A DNA stretch of 64,000 nucleotides from a virus (Duplodnaviria; Heunggongvirae; Uroviricota; Caudoviricetes), in IMG/VR virus record IMGVR_UViG_3300014489_000001, positions 1-64,000 of that record; one strand, 5' to 3'. A model generated the notes under the pieces. That model saw only the letters and a program-made list of their open reading frames with translations. It was not told the DNA's origin and made no database searches. A program made the translations under genes and the position numbers. This document shows, one piece after another, positions 21,358 to 63,716 of the stretch. Numbering within the stretch: the first letter of the stretch is position 1; each line of letters begins with the position of its first letter.

Positions 21358-21628
21358 CCCTGTGTAGACGAATCAGTTTCCTGATTCTTGCCAACAAGAT
21401 CATCATCTTGTCTGGGTTGTACTTCATGGTGATAAGGTCTTCATCGACCTCGACTATGTTGCCGGAAGCAATCCTCTCACCACCTTTGACCACGTAATAT
21501 TTTGGGCCTACGAATTCCATGGTTGCACCTTCCTGCAACAATGGCATAGGATCGAAGACACGATACATAGTCAGTCTCCCGTCTTTGAAGTGCCCAGAAT
21601 CGTCGCCAGCGAAGATGCCGTGAATCAT
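21242..21628 (-). CDS. hypothetical protein (start trimmed to MIHGIFAGDD with GGAGGAAAA SD)
   Basis: track ORF 21242..21832 overlaps the DHH gene; internal ATG at 21628 gives a 4-nt overlap. Confidence 0.4.
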   Translation of the reverse strand: MIHGIFAGDDSGHFKDGRLTMYRVFDPMPLLQEGATMEFVGPKYYVVKGGERIASGNIVEVDEDLITMKYNPDKMMILLARIRKLIRLHRDGHPGVLPEIFQWLPEGYNEHCPVPATTQGESGLPGGI

Positions 21629-22488
21629 TTTTCCTCCACGTTTGGAGAATCTCCATGTCGTGGTCCAGTTATTGCGTCCAAGAATTCTTGGTGCCACGGA
21701 ACAGAGAACGAAGCAGCATGTGCATGCCCTCCTCCTCCATATAATTGTGCAATTGCAGAGACATCGATTCCCGTATCGTTGCTTGAACGAAGAGAATACA
21801 CGAATCGTTTTATACGATCTTGGTTGAACCATACTATGGCAAATGGACGACCAAGCCCTAACTCATGACCGATTTCACTTGCGAGAACTGTTGAGTTGAC
21901 ACTCATCACCTTGTGCCCATGGAATTCGATTTCGCGGGCCTGGGACACAGCCTGGCGAATGATCTTTTCTTGGTAGCGGATAATCGGTCGGCCTTCCTTG
22001 ACACACGCATCACGACCCATCAGCACAAACTTCTCGCAGTTGGCCAGTGAGAAAGCGTAGCTTTGGATGCAGGCGTCAACTTCTTTGGATTCGGGGAGTT
22101 CCCATTTCCAAAGATCACGATCTCGGATGTAGGGGAGAATCCACAACATCTCGCGATCAGGTTTGAGATACTTCCAAGCGAGTGTCGCGCCAGATTCATC
22201 GTTATCGTCGATATACGAAAACGGATAATCAGGCACGAAGCCTTCAAGTTGTTCGCGAGTGGATTTGTGGTGGTCGATGACCAGAAGGGATTTCGGATGT
22301 ACGCTTTTGAGGATCGCAATGTCTGGACAGTAGTCCACACAAACGATTGAGTCCTCATCCGAAATTTGAGGGAGTTGTTCCTGATACCGGACAGGTATCA
22401 GGTCGGCACCTTTGAAATATGATTCTGCGATGTACGCTGCGAAGATTCCGTCGGCGCAATTTGCGTGGAAGAGCAACTTAGTTGACAT
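21625..22488 (-). CDS. DHH-family phosphoesterase (NrnA/RecJ-like) with DHHA1 domain
   Basis: HANCADG (motif I), VIDHH (motif III), GGGGHAHA (DHHA1 GGGH). Confidence 0.7.
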   Translation of the reverse strand: MSTKLLFHANCADGIFAAYIAESYFKGADLIPVRYQEQLPQISDEDSIVCVDYCPDIAILKSVHPKSLLVIDHHKSTREQLEGFVPDYPFSYIDDNDESGATLAWKYLKPDREMLWILPYIRDRDLWKWELPESKEVDACIQSYAFSLANCEKFVLMGRDACVKEGRPIIRYQEKIIRQAVSQAREIEFHGHKVMSVNSTVLASEIGHELGLGRPFAIVWFNQDRIKRFVYSLRSSNDTGIDVSAIAQLYGGGGHAHAASFSVPWHQEFLDAITGPRHGDSPNVEEK

Positions 22489-23044: not shown

Positions 23045-23367
23045 TCTGACCTACGGTAGTGAAACGATTCCACTTGAGCATTGTTGAAATTTGGCCACGG
23101 AGCATTCCATCCTTCTGGTTTGCCAGGCCATACTTCTAGTGGACCGATTTTGGATTCCATCCAGGTTTCCATTGCAGCGTGCATATCGACGACCGGGCCA
23201 ATAAAGGCCCGGTCGTTAATGAGATAGATCATATCTCTCCCTTAAACGTGGTCGGGGGACGTTTCAATCCCCCGCAAAGGCTAATCAGCTTTGCTACCAG
23301 CAAACATCGTTGGGTGAATTACTTCCAATTAGATTGCCAAGCTCTAAGCCACCCGGACACCTGAAAA

Positions 23368-24792
23368 TCATTGGGACTCGCTGGTGCGAATGAAGTCGAT
23401 GATCGCTTCGGACCACCCGCTGATATGGGTGAAGTTGCCGTAGCCGATTCCATTCTTGTCAGCACTGATGTTGATCAGGTAGTTCTCGTCACCGAATGCT
23501 TCCGCGGCGTTGGGATCGCACTTTGCATTCATGCCGGTTGCACAATCCTGCTCATCCGTAATGACGATGACGCGAGCCGCTTCGCCGTGTTCCTGTTCGC
23601 TGACGTAATCCATGCACTGAGTCAAGAAGATGCCACCGTGGCCGATTTCAGATTCCATCTTCATCTGGGCGAAAATCTCACCCAGAGCGAAACCACGACG
23701 CGCCGGAACCTGCTTCGTGGCATGTTTTCGGCGTTCATCAGACCCAGCAGTCGCATAGATGACCGGGTCTTCGGCAATCTCACGAATGAGAATCGCCAAA
23801 GCACCAGCAGCGTCCAATCTGGTCAGGTCACTCTTCTGCGAAATCTGCTTGCCGTGCATGGAACCAGACACGTCTATGATTAGGACGGTCTTACCAGGCA
23901 GTTTTTCGACCTTGGCAACGCATCGAAGCATCATATCTTCGATCATCGGTTCCCATCGCGGGCAAGCACGAGCCGCCGAGATGAATCGAAAAGGCAGAAC
24001 GCGGTCGAGAGGAACGTGCTTCGCGTACTCACGAACCAGGCCGGCGTCCACGCCAGACTGTTCCATGTTGCGAAGATTCCGAATGAAGGCTAAAGCGTAG
24101 AGCTTCTCTTCACGCATCAACCGCTCGAACGTCTCTTTCTTGTCAGCACCCGCGGAAAGTTCCGTTTCCCAAGTGTCGGGCGTCTGGAGCGTGCCGGCGA
24201 CCAATTTGCCGTACAACGATTCCGGATGGCGAAGAAGAATTTTCTCGTGGCCGTCCTTGTATTTCCGAGTGTATTTCTTGGAACGGCCGTTGCCCTTCGG
24301 TCCCGGATTCGCGTGACACAGGAACAACACGTCTTTGAGCTTGATCGCGTTGTTCTGGTTGTCGTACTTCGCGAGACTGTACTCGTTGAAGTTTCCGAAA
24401 GCCGCAGCGAGACCCTTCTTGACCTGGGCCGCAATCGGACACTTGCCGTCTTTCCAGTAGATCGAGAGGAACTAGGCCAACTCGTCGGGCCGCTGAATGA
24501 TTTCAGGTAGGAGTTTGCTCAGTTGTCCCTTGTGAACCGGCAGGCGAGCCATCTCGCGTGCAATCAGAAGCGGAACGTGCCGGAGTTTCTGGACAGTACG
24601 AGCTTGAATTGCGATTGCCGAGACCCGATCTGCTGGGACTTTGGCAATCAGAGAGCCGATGCGGGCGGCGATCTCTTCACCGGATTCGTAGAAATTGTCT
24701 TCCCAAAGCATACACGCCATTACGGAACGCCGAAGCTGTTCCTCAGTGTTGACGCTCACCGCACGAGCGCCGCCATGTGTTTTCACCGGCAT
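23368..24792 (-). pseudogene. rsr: Ro60/TROVE-domain protein with C-terminal vWA domain (Rsr-like), interrupted by an in-frame TAG at 24469-24471; pseudogene or read-through
   Basis: N-terminal segment contains the TROVE hallmark MLWEDNFYE. After TAG the frame continues FLSIYWKDGKCPIAAQVKKGLAAAFGNFNEYSLAKYDNQNNAIKLKDVLFLCHANPGP into ORF 23368..24330, whose C-terminal half has a vWA-type MIDAS (LIIDVSGSM). Confidence 0.7.
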
Positions 24793-25051
24793 TTTCGGTT
24801 CCTCCAGATTAAGGGATATACCACAAAAGTTGCAGGGATTAAACGATTCAGGGAGACATCATCAAAAGAAGTACCTGAATCTTACGCCACTGCAAGACAG
24901 ATTCGGGGAATAATTGACTACGGTTATCCCAGGTGTCAGGGTTTACAGCCCTGATCCTTGGGACTTCACTAATCAGAGAAGTATCCGTTGTCTACGCCAC
25001 CGAAAGACAGATGACGGGAATTGACGATTTCAGTTTTGGCCCTCTCGGGCG

Positions 25052-25122
25052 GTCTTTTGCTCTACCTTGGTGAGCTACAGCCAACTTGCGTTGCTGTTGG
25101 GAGTCGAACCCAATACCTAAAG
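25052..25122 (-). ncRNA. circularly permuted tRNA-like module (3' half - linker - 5' half)
   Basis: minus strand: TCTTT-AGGTA-TTGGG-TTCGACT-CCCAA-CAGCAAC-gcaag-TTGGCTG-TA-GCTC-ACCAAGGTA-GAGC-A-AAAGA; anticodon-stem strands AAAGA/TCTTT pair across the permutation. Confidence 0.5.
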
Positions 25123-25317
25123 AAGTAACTGTAATCTTCGCCACGTCAAGACTAACGACTCCAAAGGATTTACGACCTGTTTTATAGCGTCGTGAAAAAA
25201 GCACCGGGGATTAATCGGCACAGTTATGTCCATTTAAGGACACTCTAAGCAAGAAGTAACTGTGATCCTATCGCCACCGGATTGCAGATGCAGGGATTTG
25301 TCGCTACAGGCTTTCTG

Positions 25318-25388
25318 ACCGCTGCTCTTACACTGAGCTATGATGTCCGATCAGGACACCAGTTGGAATCAAACCAACGACCCGCGGT
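25318..25388 (-). ncRNA. circularly permuted tRNA-like module
   Basis: minus strand: ACCGC-GGGTC-GTTGG-TTTGATT-CCAAC-TGGTGTC-ctgatcg-GACATCA-TA-GCTC-AGTGTAA-GAGC-A-GCGGT; acceptor 7 bp (one G.U), anticodon stem GCGGT/ACCGC. Confidence 0.55.
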
Positions 25389-26180
25389 TTTCTTTGAAGT
25401 AACTGTAACTACGCCACTGCAAGAATCAGACCAACAACTACGCCAGCAGCAAAAGCTGCTATGATTACCAGTAGTTCAAACAGCAGAAAACAACCACAAC
25501 TTTTGTTGATCTCTTTTTCAGTCGGAATCAGATGACCAAACATTGAGCTATCCATCGTGTCTCCTGGATGTGGGGATTATTCACTACGGGGTAGCAGTGT
25601 TGAAACTGCAACAGCTTTCGCTGTTCTAACCGAAGTAACCGTAAGTAACGCCACCACAAGATTAAAAGGCTCATGTTATCTGTTATTCACCTTCGACCTT
25701 CGCATCATGCTACTTCCGTGGCAGACCACGCCATGAGCCTGCACCGTTGCCCATCCTCGGTGTACGGTATCGGGGATTATGCGATTCAGTGCTTTTTAGA
25801 AGGAAGTAACTGAATCTAACGCCACCGATGATTTAAGAGGGTTTTGTTTACGCAGCTTATCCCTTCAAGTGAGGGTTGCCATAGATGGGTCCCCGCTGCG
25901 TGGGCTAGGCAGTTCATGTGGCCGGGTTTCCCCGGCCCCGCGAACAATCTAAGACCCTAACCATCATTAGAAAGATTCAAAAGTCCGGGAATAATTTAGC
26001 TTCGGTTTTTCGTGTTGATGGTAGAAGTAACCGAAACAATCGCCACGGAACTAGCGTAGGTGGTGAGTTGCTTTAGGCCAGGTTGTTACTCACAATCGCT
26101 GTCTGGCCACCTTTGGATTCGTGAGGGCGGCTACACGCCGCCCTCGGCTTAATCAACAACCTCGTGCCTCATGCTTCAGC

Positions 26181-26254
26181 GCGAGTGTCCTGGACCGGTC
26201 TAGACGATACAATCCTTGTGGGATTGCAATGGGATTTGAACCCATGTTTCTCGC
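26181..26254 (-). ncRNA. circularly permuted tRNA-like module
   Basis: minus strand: GCGAG-AAAC-ATGGG-TTCAAAT-CCCAT-TGCAATC-ccacaag-GATTGTA-TC-GTC-tagaccggtccag-GAC-A-CTCGC; acceptor 7 bp (one G.U), anticodon stem CTCGC/GCGAG; flanks form an imperfect bulged helix. Confidence 0.5.
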
Positions 26255-26364
26255 AGCTTTGAGCCAGGGATTTTGCGATCACGGCGGGCACTTTTAACAG
26301 AAGTAGCCGTAATCTGTCGCCACTGGTTTGCGATTCGATTCTTGCAAGTCTCTCTGCCTAGTCC

Positions 26365-26393
26365 ATTATACCATAAAAAAGGTATCCTGTCAA
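26365..26393 (-). promoter_or_regulatory. consensus sigma-70 promoter with extended -10 (TTGACA-17-TGgTATAAT) reading into the ncRNA array and rsr
   Basis: rc reads TTGACAggataccttttttatgGTATAATgg; shares the 16-nt block tccattataccataa with the promoter at 1489-1517. Confidence 0.6.
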
Positions 26394-26429
26394 GAGCAAA
26401 AGCAAGAATTATCGGAGGAAGATTCGATT

Positions 26430-26642
26430 TCAGATCGTAACTTCATAGTTAGTATCAGTAATCGCAGCAGGCACACCCTTGATGCACTTGTTGGGATCAA
26501 GGTCATTAGCGATACATTGCTGAATCGCCATGTCCAAATCCCCACACAAGCCGAAGGGTGTAATCCACCACACCTTGAAATCGATAATCTTTTCGACCTT
26601 CCCAGGTTCGATCTCGATTGTTCTATTGACTAGGTTGATCAT
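26430..26642 (-). CDS. hypothetical protein
   Basis: 70-aa ORF. Confidence 0.35.
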   Translation of the reverse strand: MINLVNRTIEIEPGKVEKIIDFKVWWITPFGLCGDLDMAIQQCIANDLDPNKCIKGVPAAITDTNYEVTI

Positions 26643-28408
26643 GATTTCGATTCCTCAAGAGCTTTTGCCAAAGCTAAGCCACTGGTGCCGAACATCAACA
26701 AATGAGCACACACAGAGACGATTAACTTTTTGCGTTTCACGTCCGATTCGTCACGCATCTTGTCAGCGTCGTCACGTTTCCGGAGAAGCACTTCACGTTC
26801 TTTTGACGCACGACTCAAGCATTCGTCGCGATTCTTCACGATAGCAGAGCGATCCGCGATGATTTCTGACACACGACTCTCTGCCGCCCTCTTCTCTCCA
26901 AGAAGACTTGAAATACGGCACTTGGATTGCTCAACCGATTCGCGAAGAGCATTTCGACTTTCGATCATCTTCGCCAATTCGGCTTTCTGGCGTTCAGTCT
27001 TAGCCGTAAGCTCGTTATTTATGGCATCGGTCTTTTCTGCGGTCTTCTTGAGTCGGTTTAATTCGACTTCAAGATTGTGACGTTCGCCGTCGATGTTGGC
27101 CGCAAGCCTCTTGCCGTCCAAGATTTCCGCTTCCAGATTGGAAATCTTATATGCCTCAGAAGATACTGCATCGCGGCTTTCAACAAGCCGCTTGTTTGCC
27201 CGTTCGGCACACTGCACAGCTTCCTCAAGGAAGTGAATCTTTCGATTCAAATCAGCAATCAGAGGGTCGTCCTCGATCTGGTTTTGCAGTTGGAGAATCC
27301 TGGTATTCTGTTGCTGCAATTCCGTTCGTTGGTTTTCAAATGAAGAACGAATGTTATTGGATTCTTTACGAATCCTGTTCAACTCTTGCTCAAGATCACG
27401 ATTCTGCTTATCAAAATCGTTGAGCTTATCGTTGGTGACCTTGTACCGCCCTTGCAGACTTTCGAGATTCTTTTCAAGACTTGTAATCTTCATCTTGGAA
27501 AATTCCAAGTCTTGAGCCAGACATTTCGAGAGTCGGAGTTGTTCATTCTCCGACTTGAGCGCCCTGAAATCGATATCTCGACGCTCCAACAAGGTAGCAC
27601 TATACAACGCTGCTGCCTTGTTCTCATGACAATCGATTTGAAGAGTAGCAATCGATTTAGCCTGATCAGCCAGACGATCACCCTGACTCTTGGTTCCTTC
27701 CACGAGGCGGTCGATCTCGATGGTCTTGCCGCGGATGACTTCCTCAAGACAACAAATCTGTTGGCGGTCTGAATTGTCGAGAAGATTCCCGATACGTGTA
27801 CTCGCAGAAAGAAGCTGATCGTCTTTCCTCTTCAACTCTGCCCGTAATAGCTCAATCTCTTTGATCTTGTCGTCAACACGAGTCTTCTCTTGCAAATGCT
27901 GTAGCGTTCGTTCCTTCAACTCAGCTTCTCGTTCGTGAACCAAATCAAGACGACACCGAGAAATCTTTTTCTCGTGATCAAGATTGGCTCTATTCGTCTC
28001 GAAAGAATCGAGCATAGCGTCTGATCGTTCAGCATCACGCTGATCCCATTCGTCGATCTCAGCCTGCAACTTCTTGACCAGGTTCTTGAGTTCCTCGTTC
28101 TCTGTTCTCAAGTTCAGAAACTGCGGGTACAGAATCTCCCGCGACGGCATAAGGTGGTACCGTAAGGTGAGGTCCGATAGTTGCTGCTGTAAATCCTTGT
28201 TGGTCTTTTTCTGCTCGTGCAACTCGTGGCTGCGTTCCGTCAGCTTTCGCATATGGGATTTGAGTCGCTCCCTCATGCCCAGGACAGCTTTCTCCAGGTT
28301 GATGATTATGAGTGATTTGCTCATCGGGAATGTACCTTCCAAAGTTAGAATGTGATTTCCTTGCCATGTGCTTGAAACAGCCAAGACACACATAATACTT
28401 GTAGCCAT
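26639..28408 (-). CDS. long coiled-coil protein (SMC/tape-measure-like heptad-rich), start probably near MSKSLII (~28325)
   Basis: 589-aa ORF dominated by E/K/L/Q/R heptads; no enzymatic motifs. Confidence 0.45.
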   Translation of the reverse strand: MATSIMCVLAVSSTWQGNHILTLEGTFPMSKSLIIINLEKAVLGMRERLKSHMRKLTERSHELHEQKKTNKDLQQQLSDLTLRYHLMPSREILYPQFLNLRTENEELKNLVKKLQAEIDEWDQRDAERSDAMLDSFETNRANLDHEKKISRCRLDLVHEREAELKERTLQHLQEKTRVDDKIKEIELLRAELKRKDDQLLSASTRIGNLLDNSDRQQICCLEEVIRGKTIEIDRLVEGTKSQGDRLADQAKSIATLQIDCHENKAAALYSATLLERRDIDFRALKSENEQLRLSKCLAQDLEFSKMKITSLEKNLESLQGRYKVTNDKLNDFDKQNRDLEQELNRIRKESNNIRSSFENQRTELQQQNTRILQLQNQIEDDPLIADLNRKIHFLEEAVQCAERANKRLVESRDAVSSEAYKISNLEAEILDGKRLAANIDGERHNLEVELNRLKKTAEKTDAINNELTAKTERQKAELAKMIESRNALRESVEQSKCRISSLLGEKRAAESRVSEIIADRSAIVKNRDECLSRASKEREVLLRKRDDADKMRDESDVKRKKLIVSVCAHLLMFGTSGLALAKALEESKS

Positions 28409-28957: not shown

Positions 28958-29029
28958 TCGGCCTGAAAGGACTTGAACCTTCAACCTCCTGAGTATCAGT
29001 CAGGCGCTCTGCCATTGAGCTACAGGCCA
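28958..29029 (-). tRNA. tRNA-Ile (anticodon GAT)
   Basis: rc TGGCCTG-TA-GCTCAATGGCAGAGC-G-CCTGA-CTGATAC-TCAGG-AGGTT-GAAGG-TTCAAGT-CCTTT-CAGGCCG-A. Confidence 0.8.
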
Positions 29030-29043
29030 GTTGAGTCGAACAT

Positions 29044-29115
29044 TCGCTCTGCCGGGATTCGAACCCGGAACCGTCGAGATATAAGCCCGACACTCTGCCA
29101 TTGAGCTACAGAGCA
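29044..29115 (-). tRNA. tRNA with anticodon TAT (Ile, AUA decoder)
   Basis: rc TGCTCTG-TA-GCTC-AATGGCA-GAGT-G-TCGGG-CTTATAT-CTCGA-CGGTT-CCGGG-TTCGAAT-CCCGG-CAGAGCG-A. Confidence 0.7.
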
Positions 29116-29116
29116 G

Positions 29117-29189
29117 TGAACCCGGCGGGAATCGAACCCGCAACATTCTGATTAAGAGTCAGACGCTCTACCAATTGAGCTACGGATTC
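29117..29189 (-). tRNA. tRNA-Lys (anticodon CTT)
   Basis: rc GAATCCG-TA-GCTCAATTGGTAGAGC-G-TCTGA-CTCTTAA-TCAGA-ATGTT-GCGGG-TTCGATT-CCCGC-CGGGTTC-A. Confidence 0.8.
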
Positions 29190-29308
29190 AAATTTTGGTT
29201 TGAAGATTGGTTCGATACCTTCCGCACAGCCACGTAGTATATAGACTGGTGGCCAATCCGGTTTAATTGTTGTCAGTCTAACAGAAGTCGGAAACATGAA
29301 TCACCAAA

Positions 29309-29380
29309 TGGGACCGGAGGGAATCGAACCCTCATACACCGGATTAAAAGTCCGAGACTCTACCATTGAGTTACAGTCCC
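29309..29380 (-). tRNA. tRNA-Lys (anticodon TTT)
   Basis: rc GGGACTG-TA-ACTC-AATGGTA-GAGT-C-TCGGA-CTTTTAA-TCCGG-TGTAT-GAGGG-TTCGATT-CCCTC-CGGTCCC-A. Confidence 0.8.
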
Positions 29381-29446
29381 GGAAGGATTCGAACCTTCAA
29401 CCCTCGGATTCAGAATCCGATGCTCTACCGTTGAGCTACAGGACAT
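29381..29446 (-). tRNA. tRNA-Gln (anticodon CTG)
   Basis: rc ..TGTCCTG-TA-GCTCAACGGTAGAGC-A-TCGGA-TTCTGAA-TCCGA-GGGTT-GAAGG-TTCGAAT-CCTTC-CGGGAC..; 3' acceptor abuts or overlaps the next tRNA. Confidence 0.7.
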
Positions 29447-29519
29447 CAGCGCCGGTTGGATTCGAACCAACGACCAGCGGATTCAAAGTCCGCCGCTCTT
29501 CCATCTGAGCTACAGCGCA
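29447..29519 (-). tRNA. tRNA-Gln (anticodon TTG)
   Basis: rc TGCGCTG-TA-GCTCAGATGGAAGAGC-G-GCGGA-CTTTGAA-TCCGC-TGGTC-GTTGG-TTCGAAT-CCAAC-CGGCGCT-G. Confidence 0.75.
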
Positions 29520-29631
29520 ATAAAAGAGTTGTGATTAGTGGTGGTAGCCGCAGTTGCCTGGTGCGTCCTGACTAATCACATACAGCCGTTCTCAAACGTA
29601 TTGTCTCATCGTTATTTACCGGCTTACTCAG

Positions 29632-29705
29632 CAGTACCAACGGGACTTGAACCCGTAACCTTCCGGTTGACAACCGGATGCTCTAACCAATTGAGCTATG
29701 GTACT
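29632..29705 (-). tRNA. tRNA-Asp (anticodon GTC)
   Basis: rc AGTACCA-TA-GCTCAATTGGTTAGAGC-A-TCCGG-TTGTCAA-CCGGA-AGGTT-ACGGG-TTCAAGT-CCCGT-TGGTACT-G. Confidence 0.8.
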
Positions 29706-37701: not shown

Positions 37702-38055
37702 TTACATTGCCTTGAAATAAAGCTGAGTAACGTATTCCGTTTCAGTGAAGCCAGGGTATGTTTCCTTCATAACCTGTAGCAATCCTTCGTAAGTACGGCA
37801 AATTGGATCGTGTTCAAAGCACAGTAACTCTTTGTTCAAATCGATGAATCGAGTGTACTGCACTGTGAGAATTTTGTAATCCTTGTCAACAAGAGTGAAA
37901 GACATACTTTCACCAGATTCAAACCACGCCTTGATCCATTTGGACCCACGACGCACGGTAAGGTTCACATCATCCCTGAACACAGGATTGTTGAACAGTA
38001 AAGGAATCAACATCAGTCTTTCTCCAGATAAGTAGCTCCGACACACTTGAAACAC
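37702..38055 (-). CDS. hypothetical protein
   Basis: 117-aa ORF. Confidence 0.4.
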   Translation of the reverse strand: MFQVCRSYLSGERLMLIPLLFNNPVFRDDVNLTVRRGSKWIKAWFESGESMSFTLVDKDYKILTVQYTRFIDLNKELLCFEHDPICRTYEGLLQVMKETYPGFTETEYVTQLYFKAM

Positions 38056-39242
38056 ACACGACCTACGTGCATGTCTCGACGCTCAACCATCGGCTTGACA
38101 ACACAACCTTCTCGATAATGATTCGCACTTCGCCACTTGCTGGGTCCATCCGAGTGACCCACGACGCACGAAAACGAGTAGGGAACCGCTTTGTCGAGAA
38201 TCGGTACCCACGGTAGTTGATCAGCAAGATTCCTCGCAGCAATAGGGTCAGCAAATTCGCCATCAAGCATGATGTCGAATGCAGCGAACATTAACGGTTC
38301 ATTATCGGTCGCACCGTAGCGAAGATTCTGAACCTGACCAAACACTTCGCCGTATACTACGGCACCTGGATGGTTGATTAACCAAAACTCAAGACATGGT
38401 GTTGCACTGAGAGCATTCCACCAAAGATTACGTTGCTTCGGTTTGTTGTGCAACCTGTCGAAAATCTCTTGGACACGTGTCTCATCGACTTCCCTGAACT
38501 CAGGAGGTTGACTTGGAACAAGTCTTACAAATTGTGCTGGTGGCATTTCAGGCGTAGCTGTTGCGTCCTTCTTGAAGACGTGCTGGCGCAGGAACTCAAG
38601 AGTGATGTGATCGTAAGAAGGATATTCTTTCTTCCACTCATTACGCGACCCACAATGAATCTGCCCATCACTATAGACATAACGAGCCGAGCAACCATGA
38701 ATCTTTTCCGTAATCCACACCGGCTCACCCTCGGTGAACAAGTTATGATACTTACGGAATGCATCCACGTCGTACTTGACCGTGAATACAGTCGGGCCTT
38801 TGGCAGTTTCACCACCAGTAATCAGGTTGTCACTCTGGACACCTGGAAGCGGTGGCTCGTAATGCGTGACGCCTAGTTGCGTAGCAACGTCGTCACCGAG
38901 ATTACTGCCTTCCGGAGCAGGGACCATGAGGCCGTAGCTAACGACTTTGCGAAGCTTGATCGCTTTAACTCGGTGTGTTCCGTCGGCTTTTGGCTTAAGG
39001 AAGCTGAATTCTGGTCGACTGGTATCGACAACGGAATCCGGTGGGAGGTAAGCGCCCTGTGCCACGGCTTGCCAGTCTGCGGTTCGGACGACACAGGTGT
39101 AACCACCAAAGACGTTGACGATGGATAGTGAATCAGCATTAGGGTGTTTCTCCAACACGATTGATACGACTTCAACCTGATGCGTAGAATTACTCATTAC
39201 CACTCCCAAGCCATTAAAGGTGAAACGATTTCCGCTTTCCAC
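38013..39242 (-). CDS. Rnl2-type ATP-dependent RNA ligase fused to an N-terminal tRNA-binding (Myf/Trbp111-like OB) domain
   Basis: N-terminus VEVVSIVLEKHPNADSLSIVNVFGG (tRNA_bind HPNADxL); ligase motif I TEKIHGCSARY (KxHG) and motif IV EGCVVKP. Confidence 0.6.
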   Translation of the reverse strand: MESGNRFTFNGLGVVMSNSTHQVEVVSIVLEKHPNADSLSIVNVFGGYTCVVRTADWQAVAQGAYLPPDSVVDTSRPEFSFLKPKADGTHRVKAIKLRKVVSYGLMVPAPEGSNLGDDVATQLGVTHYEPPLPGVQSDNLITGGETAKGPTVFTVKYDVDAFRKYHNLFTEGEPVWITEKIHGCSARYVYSDGQIHCGSRNEWKKEYPSYDHITLEFLRQHVFKKDATATPEMPPAQFVRLVPSQPPEFREVDETRVQEIFDRLHNKPKQRNLWWNALSATPCLEFWLINHPGAVVYGEVFGQVQNLRYGATDNEPLMFAAFDIMLDGEFADPIAARNLADQLPWVPILDKAVPYSFSCVVGHSDGPSKWRSANHYREGCVVKPMVERRDMHVGRVCFKCVGATYLEKD

Positions 39243-63642: not shown

Positions 63643-63716
63643 GGTGACTGAACTCAAAAAGGTGCGAGACCAGATTGTGAATCTGGTATAAGCGGGTTCG
63701 ACTCCCGCCAGTCACA
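63643..63716 (+). tRNA. tRNA-His (anticodon GTG) with encoded G-1
   Basis: g-GTGACTG-AA-CTC..GAG-A-CCAGA-TTGTGAA-TCTGG-TATAA-GCGGG-TTCGACT-CCCGC-CAGTCAC-A; short 3-bp D stem. Confidence 0.7.

What the first reader, a model, noticed from the sequence alone, without database searches (positions are those of the whole stretch)
25052..26254. Three clear circularly permuted tRNA-like modules whose acceptor stems are closed by 5-7-nt linkers and whose anticodon stems form across the permutation
In units 3, 5 and 9 (25052-25122, 25318-25388, 26181-26254; minus strand) the canonical T-arm is followed by a 7-nt 3' acceptor strand, a short linker, the complementary 5' acceptor strand, TA or TC, and a D-arm. 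T-arm sequences are GTTGG-TTTGATT-CCAAC, TTGGG-TTCGACT-CCCAA and ATGGG-TTCAAAT-CCCAT. The 5-nt segments flanking the module are perfectly complementary (GCGGT/ACCGC, AAAGA/TCTTT, CTCGC/GCGAG), giving an anticodon-stem equivalent that is open rather than loop-closed. Adjacent acceptor complementarity rules out an intron-split conventional tRNA. Such RNAs could be substrates for tRNA-modification enzymes or act as decoys; other units (2, 4, 6, 7, 8) are different multi-hairpin RNAs.
Basis: seen in the sequence. Interest (0 to 1): 0.8.

Follow-up and report, generated by a model that had tools for sequence, protein, structure and literature searches.

The report
Phage YrlA-type Y RNAs beside Ro60
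The three "permuted tRNA-like" elements are real, but they are the already described tRNA-mimic domain of bacterial and phage Y RNAs (YrlA class), here part of an unusually long array of nine Y-RNA-like units transcribed just upstream of a phage Ro60 gene.

Summary
A covariance model built only from related loci finds exactly these three in the 64-kb window (53.6, 50.1 and 29.8 bits).

They are not a new RNA class. The order T-arm, closed acceptor stem-loop, D-arm on a stem that replaces the anticodon arm is the published YrlA architecture. [quoted passage not shown]

The context fits:
- A TROVE/Ro60 gene lies 260–1460 nt downstream on the same strand.
- A perfect sigma-70 promoter precedes nine units that share one Y RNA scaffold.
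- That scaffold and the tRNA-like module recur and covary in hundreds of TROVE loci from phages and bacteria.

Two modules (25123–25053 and 25388–25318) sit inside canonical scaffolds. The third (26254–26181) is an orphan without the Ro60-binding motif.

Less ordinary features are the array size (9 units; typical is 1–5), the orphan module, and an in-frame TAG in the Ro60 gene that appears in five assemblies. Verdict: new members of a known kind, of modest interest.

The parts
26365..26393 (-). Sigma-70-type promoter: TTGACA, 17-nt spacer, TATAAT, with TG before the -10 hexamer. It would drive the whole array and probably the TROVE gene.
   Evidence: 12 of 12 consensus matches, the only perfect site in 23200-26700. 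No convincing intrinsic terminator lies between it and the TROVE gene.
26264..26326 (-). Unit U1 (63 nt), a minimal Y-RNA-like unit with apical hairpin UACUUCUGUUAAAAGUGCC.
   Evidence: Motif. Helix 2 GATTACGGC/GCCGTGATC. Terminal stem CCAG/CTGG. Homologues at L001:2581 and L001:4082 have covarying helices.
26181..26254 (-). T-arm ATGGG-TTCAAAT-CCCAT, a 7-bp acceptor stem closed by CCACAAG, UC linker, D-arm GTCT..GGAC, closing stem GCGAG/CTCGC. The closing stem extends to about 26264-26174. No GNCGAA or YUAY motif.
   Evidence: R1 29.8 bits, E 1e-6. The MFE fold reproduces the structure. Its flanks have no homologue in other loci. The same 'UC-GUCUA' D-arm type occurs in L001:950 and L167:5825.
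26123..26145 (-). Strong 9-bp hairpin GAGGGCGGC-GTGTA-GCCGCCCTC with no U-tract after it. A possible degenerate tenth unit beginning GTGGCC at 26110 follows.
   Evidence: Read and folded. Low confidence; not analysed further.
25984..26049 (-). Unit U2 (66 nt), a minimal unit with a pyrimidine-rich apical loop (YrlB-like).
   Evidence: Homologue at L001:1929.
25769..25829 (-). Unit U3 (61 nt), a minimal unit.
25569..25658 (-). Unit U4 (90 nt). Its head has two hairpins: AACAGC-GAAA-GCTGTT and GCAGT-TTCAAC-ACTGC.
25289..25421 (-). Unit U5 (133 nt), a YrlA-type Y RNA. Terminal stem TGCAG/CTGCA, GUGGCGUAG loop, helix 2 TTACAG/CTGTAG, UUAC, and the tRNA-like module at 25388-25318.
   Evidence: R1 53.6 bits, E 1e-13. 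Rfam YrlA 27.7 bits. MFE fold. Scaffold.
25204..25280 (-). Unit U6 (77 nt). The head hairpin has a CCUUAAAUGG loop that is conserved in L001:2404.
25012..25148 (-). Unit U7 (137 nt), a YrlA-type Y RNA. Terminal stem TGACG/CGTCA, an exact GGCGAAG motif, helix 2 ATTACAGTT/AACTGAAAT, UUAC, the tRNA-like module at 25123-25053, and an extra GCCC-GAGA-GGGC hairpin.
   Evidence: R1 50.1 bits, E 1e-12. Rfam YrlA 32.8 bits. Orthologues at L001:4381 and L131:810 have different but still pairing T and acceptor stems.
24902..25004 (-). Unit U8 (103 nt). The head has two hairpins, with a CUGUAAAC loop conserved in L001:2792.
24830..24895 (-). Unit U9 (66 nt), a minimal unit directly upstream of the TROVE ribosome-binding site.
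   Evidence: Homologue at L001:1156.
23368..24792 (-). TROVE/Ro60-type gene (474 codons) with an in-frame TAG at 24474-24472.
   Evidence: Pfam TROVE E 4e-11. Thermus phage phiLo Ro60 structures 9KOP and 9L5Y, E 1e-14 over residues 3-470. 68-70% identical to intact genes in L001 and L131. PHROG 'RNA-binding protein'.

Best explanation
The three elements are tRNA-like effector domains of YrlA-class Y RNAs, the non-coding RNA partners of the ring-shaped Ro60 (Rsr/TROVE) protein.

**Shown from sequence and comparison**
- A strong promoter at 26393-26365 precedes nine units, followed by the phage's Ro60 gene, all on one strand.
- Every unit has the same scaffold: a 4-6-bp terminal stem; G(U)GG paired to the CC of a 3' (A/U)UCCC tail; an internal loop carrying (C/U)G(A/U)(A/U)G, which is the GNCGAA-type Ro60-contact motif; a covarying second helix; then a UAC (YUAY-type) motif that opens a variable head.
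- In units U5 and U7 the head is a tRNA core without an anticodon loop and without a free CCA end. It consists of variable loop, T-arm, a closed 7-bp acceptor stem-loop, U8-A9, and D-arm. It is closed by a 5-bp stem at the position of the anticodon stem, which continues into the scaffold.
- The third module has the same core on its own extended stem but no Ro60 motif.

**Inferred from the characterised family**
- The array is made as one precursor and cut into RNAs of 61-137 nt. D. radiodurans makes Yrn2, tRNA-Asp and Yrn1 as one polycistronic precursor.
- The scaffold binds Ro60 through its 5' strand.
- The tRNA-like head folds into an L-shape, is modified by host TruB and DusA, and recruits a still unknown tRNA-elbow-binding factor.
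- The other heads recruit other partners, for example PNPase, as shown for D. radiodurans Yrn1 and for phage phiLo Yrl1/Yrl2.

The likely net effect is to retarget host RNA decay or quality control during infection.
For: [quoted passage not shown]

**Ro60 gene downstream on the same strand**.

**Motif GTGGCG-N-TACTTC.** Nine copies against 0.05 expected. In 169 TROVE loci (162 after removing duplicate contigs), 83 carry it on the TROVE strand and 3 on the other strand.

**Independent model R1.** It finds the three modules. In related loci, 127 of 133 hits and 102 of 102 hits lie on the TROVE strand.

**Covariation over 133 modules**:
- T stem 99% paired, acceptor stem 93%, D stem 94%, closing stem 72%.
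- 524 double-change cells against 140 in shuffles.
- Slid controls give 33-50% paired.

**Scaffold.**
- Terminal stems are present in 9 of 9 units (mean 4.8 bp against 2.4 bp in cross-unit controls).
- RNAalifold on 49 minimal units recovers terminal stem, internal loop and helix 2, with many compensatory changes in helix 2. Helix 2 was not a selection criterion.

**Orthologous units in L001 and L131** keep the T and acceptor helices with different sequences, lengths and loops.

**Transcription and precedent.** Promoter. Polycistronic precedent in PMC4201824 section 9. Phage precedent in PMC12135203.
Against: - Rfam's YrlA model does not reach its gathering score: 32.8 and 27.7 bits against 69, and no hit to the third module. 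The same is true of every relative tested, so this reflects the model's reach.
- Only U7 matches GNCGAAN0-1G exactly. U5 has GGCGUAG, and the orphan has neither that motif nor YUAY.
- U5's T-loop has U instead of C56, and its D-loop lacks the GG pair. U7 lacks a canonical R15:Y48 pair.
- The Ro60 gene carries an in-frame TAG at an invariant Glu, just before the family's most conserved motif. The protein partner may therefore not be made without read-through.
- There are no expression, end-mapping, binding or modification data. All functional steps are inferred from homologues.
Confidence: 0.85

Rival explanations
1. The tRNA-like elements, especially the orphan at 26254-26181, serve mainly as processing signals. 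RNase P, RNase Z or CCA-adding enzyme would recognise the tRNA-like fold and cut the long precursor into individual Y RNAs, as tRNAs do in polycistronic transcripts and as happens for mascRNA.
For: - All three acceptor stems are 7 bp, the length that makes M. smegmatis YrlA an RNase P substrate.
- The related array in L001 contains genuine tRNA-Trp and tRNA-His between units.
- D. radiodurans co-transcribes Yrn2, tRNA-Asp and Yrn1.
- The orphan has no Ro60-binding motif.
- The array has one promoter and no internal terminators.
Against: - U5 and U7 modules are enclosed within their own scaffolds, so cleavage in the acceptor loop would cut the Y RNA itself rather than separate units.
- Seven of the nine units have no tRNA-like element next to them.
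- Adjacent units are separated by short conserved UCUGUC(U) spacers that could be the real cleavage sites.
- This idea is not exclusive of the main explanation.
Confidence: 0.15
2. They act independently of Ro60 as decoys or sponges for host proteins that recognise the tRNA elbow or acceptor arm, such as modification enzymes or tRNA-targeting defence factors.
For: - The Ro60 gene is interrupted by a TAG in all five assemblies.
- The orphan module lacks the Ro60 motif.
- The phage invests in tRNA biology: a tRNA cluster at 28958-29705 and an RNA ligase at 38013-39242.
Against: - The modules have no anticodon loop and no CCA end, so they cannot mimic substrates of anticodon nucleases or synthetases.
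- In 229 of 235 hits across related loci the module lies on the TROVE-gene strand, which argues for a Ro60-linked role.
- Of the upstream flanks inspected, most carry a GTGG(C/U)G-type scaffold motif.
Confidence: 0.08
3. They are artefacts of tRNA gene arrangement. One version is a junction between two tandem tRNA genes or decayed tRNA pseudogenes. The other is a permuted or split tRNA gene that yields a normal tRNA after processing.
For: - Model R1 also scores tandem-tRNA junctions highly.
- Chen et al. warn of this false-positive class.
- The phage has a tRNA cluster 3.5 kb upstream.
Against: - ARAGORN and Rfam tRNA find no tRNA at 24830-26330.
- There is no D-arm or anticodon arm upstream of the T-arm, and no anticodon, T-arm or acceptor downstream of the D-arm.
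- The acceptor strands are adjacent, complementary and closed by 4-7 nt loops. They covary across 133 homologues, whereas true junction hits show broken 'acceptor' pairs.
- The closing stem runs into the Y RNA scaffold with no anticodon loop, so circularisation could not yield a decoding tRNA.
Confidence: 0.02

Closest known systems
YrlA (Y RNA-like A; Rfam RF02553; S. Typhimurium YrlA, crystal structure PDB 6CU1; M. smegmatis and mycobacteriophage YrlAs)
   Same: - 5' Ro60-contact motif of the GNCGAA type.
- YUAY before the variable loop.
- T-arm, then a closed acceptor stem-loop, UA, then D-arm.
- A closing stem at the anticodon-stem position that continues into the Ro60-binding module.
- Location just upstream of Ro60 on the same strand.
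- Most tertiary-contact nucleotides present: U8, A14, G18G19, the U54-U55-C56-R57-A58 T-loop, and G15:C48 in two of the three modules.
   Different: - Sequence is divergent enough that the Rfam model scores only 28-33 bits against a gathering score of 69.
- The motif is GUGG(C/U)G(A/U)AG, with a conserved 3' (A/U)UCCC tail pairing to GG.
- Acceptor stems are 7 bp (Salmonella has 6).
- One module lacks the scaffold.
- Up to three tRNA-like modules occur among nine units in one transcript.
YrlB / Yrn2-type short Y RNAs (S. Typhimurium YrlB, M. smegmatis YrlB, D. radiodurans Yrn2)
   Same: Units U1, U2, U3 and U9 are 61-66-nt hairpins with the same Ro60-type scaffold and small pyrimidine-rich apical loops. 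PMC4201824 section 9 describes exactly this for the second Y RNA of each species.
   Different: - There are four or more such units here rather than one.
- The heads are conserved with L001 unit by unit, which suggests distinct functions.
Thermus phage phiLo Ro60 with Yrl1 and Yrl2 (PMC12135203; PDB 9KOP, 9L5Y)
   Same: - A phage-encoded Ro60, the best structural-sequence match to the window's protein (E 1e-14).
- Y-RNA-like genes with a CGAA motif in an internal loop flanked by a 5'-3' stem, located upstream of the gene.
- Proposed hijacking of host PNPase.
   Different: - phiLo has two Yrl RNAs, and that paper does not mention YrlA.
- The window has nine units plus an orphan.
- The window's Ro60 gene has an in-frame TAG.
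D. radiodurans rsr locus (Yrn1, Yrn2 and RNAs a, b, d; tRNA-Asp)
   Same: [quoted passage not shown] Some carry only a T-arm, which compares with U4.
   Different: - In Yrn1 the T and D elements have the opposite orientation relative to the 5' end.
- Both strands of the Ro60 helix are conserved there.
- There are five RNAs rather than nine to twelve.
Permuted tRNA genes (Cyanidioschyzon merolae) and two-piece permuted tmRNA
   Same: The 3' half (T-arm and 3' acceptor strand) is encoded upstream of the 5' half (5' acceptor strand and D-arm).
   Different: Those genes are processed to open the acceptor end and produce a decoding or aminoacylatable RNA. Here the acceptor is closed, there is no anticodon loop or CCA, and the module is an internal domain of a larger RNA.

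Membership tests
YrlA-class Y RNA (Chen et al. 2014 definition) | Encoded within 4 kb of a Ro60/TROVE gene on the same strand | tested here: met
   The modules end 260, 525 and 1390 nt upstream of the TROVE start at 24792, on the same strand.
YrlA-class Y RNA (Chen et al. 2014 definition) | GNCGAAN0-1G motif near the 5' end (Ro60 contact) | tested here: inconclusive
   - U7 has GGCGAAG, an exact match.
- U5 has GGCGUAG, one mismatch.
- The orphan has none.
- Variants seen across the wider clade include GG(C/U)GAAG, GGCGUAG and GGCGCAG.
YrlA-class Y RNA (Chen et al. 2014 definition) | Conserved YUAY preceding or opening the variable loop | tested here: met
   U5 and U7 have UUAC, within GUUACUUC. 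All nine units have NUAC. The orphan module lacks it.
YrlA-class Y RNA (Chen et al. 2014 definition) | T stem-loop, closed acceptor (AS) stem-loop, UA dinucleotide and D stem-loop in that 5'-to-3' order | tested here: met
   - All three modules have this order.
- The linker is UA in U5 and U7 and UC in the orphan.
- Family covariation: T stem 99% paired, AS 93%, D 94%.
YrlA-class Y RNA (Chen et al. 2014 definition) | tRNA tertiary-contact nucleotides: U8, A14, R15:Y48 Levitt pair, G18G19, T-loop UUCRA | tested here: inconclusive
   - Orphan: all present.
- U7: all present except 15:48, which is C15/A48.
- U5: G15:C48 present, but the T-loop is UUUGA (U56) and the D-loop AGUGUAA has no GG.

Read.
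YrlA-class Y RNA (Chen et al. 2014 definition) | Closing stem at the anticodon-stem position that continues into the Ro60-binding stem; no anticodon loop, no free CCA | tested here: met
   - 5-bp closing stems are present in all three.
- U5 and U7 continue into helix 2 and the terminal stem.
- The family closing stem is 72% paired, with compensatory changes at all 5 pairs.
Rfam RF02553 (YrlA) | Score at or above the curated gathering threshold (69 bits) | tested here: not met
   - Window modules score 32.8 and 27.7 bits, and the third has no hit.
- No relative reaches the threshold either. L001 scores 40.9 bits, and there are no hits in 10 viral and 20 bacterial loci.
- The curated model does not cover this TROVE clade.
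Y RNA (functional definition) | Stable small RNA bound by Ro60; requires Ro60 for accumulation | not testable with these tools
   Needs RIP-seq, EMSA or Northern blots. Only the sequence scaffold and its linkage to the gene are shown here.
Y RNA (functional definition) | Stem formed by the 5' and 3' ends that encloses a conserved bulge or internal loop, with a variable effector module at the other end | tested here: met
   Terminal stems are present in 9 of 9 units. The RNAalifold consensus of 49 minimal units gives stem, loop and stem, with covariation in helix 2.
YrlA-class Y RNA (experimental properties) | Pseudouridine-55 and dihydrouridine made by TruB and DusA; RNase P cleavage when the acceptor stem is 7 bp | not testable with these tools
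   Known for S. Typhimurium and M. smegmatis YrlA (PMC4201824). Here only the substrate-like sequence is seen: U55 in all three modules and 7-bp acceptor stems.
Genuine, permuted or split tRNA gene | Anticodon stem-loop and an acceptor end that can be opened to carry CCA | tested here: not met
   There is no anticodon loop and the acceptor is closed by 4-7 nt. ARAGORN and Rfam tRNA call nothing at 24830-26330.

The most novel reading that the evidence does not exclude
The array may be a promoter-driven 'adaptor library'. It would comprise at least nine different Y RNAs sharing one Ro60-binding scaffold but carrying distinct, individually conserved heads: two tRNA mimics, one head with a T-arm-like hairpin, and several hairpin heads. 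These would let a single phage Ro60 ring, or the host's Rsr if the phage gene's TAG is not read through, be tethered to many different host factors.

As far as the literature I could search shows, this would be the largest Y RNA repertoire described in one genome. The scaffold-less third module would then be a free-standing tRNA mimic with a separate role, either in processing or as an elbow-binding decoy.
Probability: 0.3. Interest if true: 0.6.

Novelty: new member of a known kind. Interest (0 to 1): 0.32.

Why it matters
The partner of the YrlA tRNA-like domain is still unknown, and the role of Ro60 and Y RNAs in phage infection is barely explored. One structural study suggests that a phage Ro60 hijacks host PNPase.

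A phage that places nine differently headed Y RNAs behind one strong promoter offers a compact natural test set. It could show which heads bind which host factors, and whether tRNA mimicry is needed.

The analysis also shows that the curated Rfam YrlA model misses a large clade of phage and Acidobacteriota Y RNAs. These have a clear scaffold signature, GUGG(C/U)G(A/U)AG ... UACUUC ... UUCCC, which could seed a better model.

As a discovery, however, the permuted tRNA-like module itself is not new.

Tried and rejected
- **Bare-pattern collection scans.** GGTGGCG-N-TTACTTC and GAATAACAGATAAC returned only single chance matches. They were uninformative and cost two viral scans.
- **BLASTN against deposited phages.** Only the TROVE gene matched, at about 66% identity in Xanthomonas phages. 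No array homologue turned up.
- **Rfam at gathering threshold.** Nothing was found in the array. The permissive scan was needed.
- **TAG recoding or a suppressor tRNA.** Rejected. Treating TAG as sense gains no more ORF length than treating TAA as sense. No CUA-anticodon tRNA exists, and the extra Rfam tRNA at 63644-63716 has anticodon GUG.
- **TAG as a sequencing error.** Rejected. The same truncated ORF occurs in five assemblies.
- **Natural variation among those assemblies.** There is none; all are 100% identical.
- **Homologues of the orphan module's flanks and other spacers.** Only the U3-U4 spacer element is conserved, and only with L001.
- **A composite U1-plus-orphan Y RNA.** Rejected, because U1 closes on itself through helix 2 and a terminal stem.
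- **Protein-coding explanation for short ORFs overlapping the modules.** Not supported. Covariation is of the RNA type. Gene callers on the source contigs call only a 48-aa ORF and one antisense 58-aa ORF.
- **Literature gaps.** Two review articles and the Chen et al. supplement are not held in the library. The maximum number of Y RNAs reported per genome could therefore not be checked beyond the main texts.
Full report
**1. What is in the sequence**

On the minus strand the region reads as one block. From upstream to downstream it holds:
- a perfect sigma-70 promoter (TTGACA, 17 nt, TATAAT, with an extended -10 TG) at 26393-26365;
- nine copies of GTGGCG-N(6-16)-TACTTC, against 0.05 expected;
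- a 474-codon gene starting at 24792.

That gene is a TROVE/Ro60 protein. Pfam TROVE gives E 4e-11. The Thermus phage phiLo Ro60 structures 9KOP and 9L5Y match at E 1e-14 over residues 3-470. PHROGs calls it an 'RNA-binding protein'.

The window is a phage replication and nucleotide-metabolism region. It encodes DNA ligase, RNA ligase, ribonucleotide reductase, DNA polymerase, helicase and primase. A seven-tRNA cluster lies 3.5 kb upstream of the array on the same strand.

**2. The observation**

One interval is shifted by 1 nt, and the U7 acceptor stem is 7 bp with a bulged G and a GCAA loop.

I built covariance model R1 from 19 modules taken only from other loci (A2). Searched over all 64 kb, both strands, without filters, it gives:

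| Interval | Bits | E-value |
|---|---|---|
| 25388-25318 | 53.6 | 1e-13 |
| 25123-25053 | 50.1 | 1e-12 |
| 26254-26181 | 29.8 | 1e-6 |

The only other strong hits are junctions between tandem tRNA genes at 28.9-29.7 kb. This is the false-positive class that Chen et al. describe, and in those hits the 'acceptor' pairs are broken. ARAGORN and Rfam tRNA find no tRNA in the array. Unconstrained folding reproduces the T/acceptor/D/closing-stem layout for U5 and for the third module.

**3. What they are**

The literature defines YrlA RNAs by four features (PMC4201824):
- a 5' GNCGAAN0-1G motif that contacts Ro60;
- a YUAY that opens the variable loop;
- T, AS (a closed acceptor stem-loop) and D stem-loops in that order;
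- location within 4 kb of Ro60 on the same strand.

The crystal-structure paper states that YrlA lacks an anticodon loop and a free CCA end.

Rfam's YrlA model aligns its tRNA-like core (model positions 23-88) to two of the modules, at 32.8 and 27.7 bits. This is below its gathering score of 69.

**4. The scaffold shared by all nine units**

Each GTGGCG...TACTTC motif belongs to a self-contained RNA of 61-137 nt:
- The 4-6 nt ending at the first G pair with the nucleotides that immediately follow a 3' (A/U)UCC tail. This holds in 9 of 9 units, with a mean of 4.8 bp against 2.4 bp when tails are swapped between units.
- The stretch between GTGGCG and TAC pairs with a return strand of 6-9 bp in the window units (6-12 bp across the window, L001 and L131), and its sequence differs from unit to unit.

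RNAalifold on 49 minimal units from many loci was given no structure. It independently returns a terminal stem, G(U)GG paired to CC, an internal loop carrying (C/U)G(A/U)AG, and a second helix with abundant compensatory changes. The terminal stem was a selection criterion for those sequences, so only helix 2 counts as unbiased evidence.

This is the stem, internal loop, stem design of Y RNAs, with the CGAA-type motif in the loop. The same design was used to find phiLo Yrl1 and Yrl2.

The unit heads differ:
- U5 and U7 have tRNA-like heads.
- U1, U2, U3 and U9 are short hairpins with pyrimidine-rich loops, which is YrlB-like (PMC4201824 section 9).
- U4, U6 and U8 carry one or two other hairpins.

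**5. Comparative evidence**

TROVE relatives were collected from viral contigs, metagenomes and genomes.

*Motif counts.* The motif lies on the TROVE strand in 83 loci and on the other strand in 3.

*R1 hits.* R1 finds 133 modules in 90 loci, 127 of them on the TROVE strand. It finds 102 in 72 viral loci, all on the TROVE strand.

*Pairing over the 133 aligned modules*:

| Stem | Paired |
|---|---|
| T | 99% |
| Acceptor | 93% |
| D | 94% |
| Closing | 72% |

There are 524 double-change cells against 140 ± 11 in shuffles. Partners slid by 1-3 columns give 33-50% pairing. This alignment was fitted to the model, which favours the structure. Even so, the acceptor stem has almost no sequence conservation and still pairs.

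*Closest relatives.* L001 and L131 have TROVE proteins 68-70% identical to the window's. They carry unit-by-unit homologues. The U7 orthologues keep the T stem as TTGGG/CCCAA, ATGGG/CCCAT and GTGGG/CCCGC. Their acceptor stem-loops are completely different: 7 bp with GCAA, 5 bp with UUCG, and about 10 bp with UCG.

*Bacterial genomes.* In named bacterial genomes of this clade, mostly Acidobacteriota and including Granulicella rosea, the scaffold motif occurs 1-8 times on the TROVE strand. Rfam YrlA reaches threshold in none of 20 loci. Failure of the Rfam cut-off is therefore a limitation of that model for the whole clade.

**6. How the third module differs**

It lies between U1 and U2, after U1 has closed on itself. 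It has no GNCGAA-type or YUAY motif and sits on its own interrupted stem, about 26264-26174. It uses a UC linker and a GUCU...GGAC D-arm, a subtype also seen in L001:950 and L167:5825. Its flanks have no homologue elsewhere.

It is best described as an orphan YrlA-type tRNA mimic. It may be a decayed Y RNA, a processing element or a free-standing mimic.

**7. Mechanism**

*Shown:* one promoter, no convincing terminator before the gene, nine scaffolded units, and tight linkage of scaffold and module to TROVE genes.

*Inferred from characterised homologues:*
- Transcription as one precursor. D. radiodurans Yrn2, tRNA-Asp and Yrn1 are co-transcribed.
- Processing at the short UCUGUC(U) spacers or the terminal stems.
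- Ro60 binding through the 5' strand.
- L-shaped folding of the tRNA-like head, with TruB and DusA modification.
- Tethering of Ro60 to effectors such as PNPase.

The partner of the tRNA-like head is unknown even for Salmonella YrlA.

**8. Caveats**

- The Ro60 gene has an in-frame TAG at 24474-24472. It replaces a Glu that is invariant in 63 homologues and lies just before the FLxIYWKDGKCP motif.
- The TAG is not an error. The same truncated ORF occurs in five assemblies from different projects, all 100% identical across the region.
- There is no sign of TAG recoding or of a suppressor tRNA. The phage Ro60 may need read-through, may be inactive, or the Y RNAs may use a host Rsr.
- U5 has a degenerate elbow: U56 and no GG in the D-loop. 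U7 lacks a canonical 15:48 pair.
- Nothing here shows expression or binding.

**9. Novelty**

The permuted tRNA-like module is already known, so these are new members of the YrlA class.

What goes beyond the literature I could read is quantitative:
- This phage has nine units plus an orphan, and L001 has twelve under the relaxed motif. Reported cases have two to five.
- In my own survey 1-5 units per locus is typical and 6-8 is occasional.
- The heads are individually conserved.
- The curated Rfam model misses a large clade.

A specialist would find this useful but not surprising.

Noticed in passing
window 24472-24474 (minus strand), within the TROVE gene 23368-24792: An in-frame TAG replaces a Glu that is invariant in 63 homologues (GAA or GAG), just upstream of the family's most conserved motif. 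The same interrupted gene occurs in five independent assemblies, all 100% identical. There is no recoding signal and no suppressor tRNA. It could be read-through, a split gene or a recent pseudogene.
   Followed up: partly
window 25668-25739 (minus strand); L001:1843-1917: A 72-nt structured element lies in the spacer between units U3 and U4. It is 84% identical to L001, with compensatory changes in its 9-bp outer stem and a conserved interior (GGCGUGGUCUGCC...AAGUAG...GAUGC...GAAUAACAGAUAAC). It has no Rfam match and was not found elsewhere.
   Followed up: partly
window 25409-25555 (minus strand): A 48-aa ORF with a good AGGAG ribosome-binding site and a hydrophobic C-terminal half sits inside the array, between U4 and U5. 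Its last codons and stop (GCA GTG GCG TAG) overlap the terminal stem and GUGGCG motif of unit U5. Gene callers called it on the source contigs.
   Followed up: no
window 25005-25011, 24896-24901 and 25281-25288 (minus strand): Adjacent units U7|U8, U8|U9 and U5|U6 are separated by only 6-8 nt, with a recurring UCUGUC(U) or UCUGCAAU spacer. This is a candidate processing site for the precursor.
   Followed up: no
L001:750-4790 (IMGVR_UViG_3300022173_000112) and L131:90-1120: The closest relatives carry an even longer array, twelve scaffold motifs over 4 kb. It is interrupted by protein-coding ORFs and by genuine tRNA-Trp (L001:1076-1150) and tRNA-His (L001:4800-4874) genes. Their TROVE genes are intact.
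   Followed up: partly
L006:3954-4395: A tmRNA gene (called by both Rfam and ARAGORN, the Rfam best hit being the permuted type) lies in a viral contig immediately upstream of the Y RNA units and TROVE gene. This is a second tRNA-mimic RNA in the same neighbourhood.
   Followed up: no
window 63644-63716 (plus strand): Rfam calls a tRNA here (54.3 bits) that ARAGORN does not report. By eye it has a GUG (His) anticodon and an atypical D-arm region.
   Followed up: partly
window 26047-26113 and 26123-26145 (minus strand): After the orphan module comes a strong 9-bp GC hairpin with no U-tract. It is followed by a segment beginning GGUGGCCAGAC that resembles the unit 5' motif, and GTGGCCAGAC also occurs in L001 near 2531. 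This may be a degenerate tenth unit with pseudoknot potential.
   Followed up: no
L419-L498 (genome contigs) and L001-L010: The curated Rfam YrlA model (RF02553) reaches its gathering score in none of 30 loci of this TROVE clade. These include phage contigs, Acidobacteriota MAGs and Granulicella rosea. My clade-specific model finds modules in most of the loci I searched with it.
   Followed up: yes
window 38013-39242 and 21625-22488 (minus strand): The phage also encodes an RNA ligase (PHROG 968). Just downstream of the TROVE gene it encodes an HNH endonuclease and a DHH/DHHA1 phosphoesterase. This fits an RNA repair or RNA turnover theme around the Ro60 locus.
   Followed up: no
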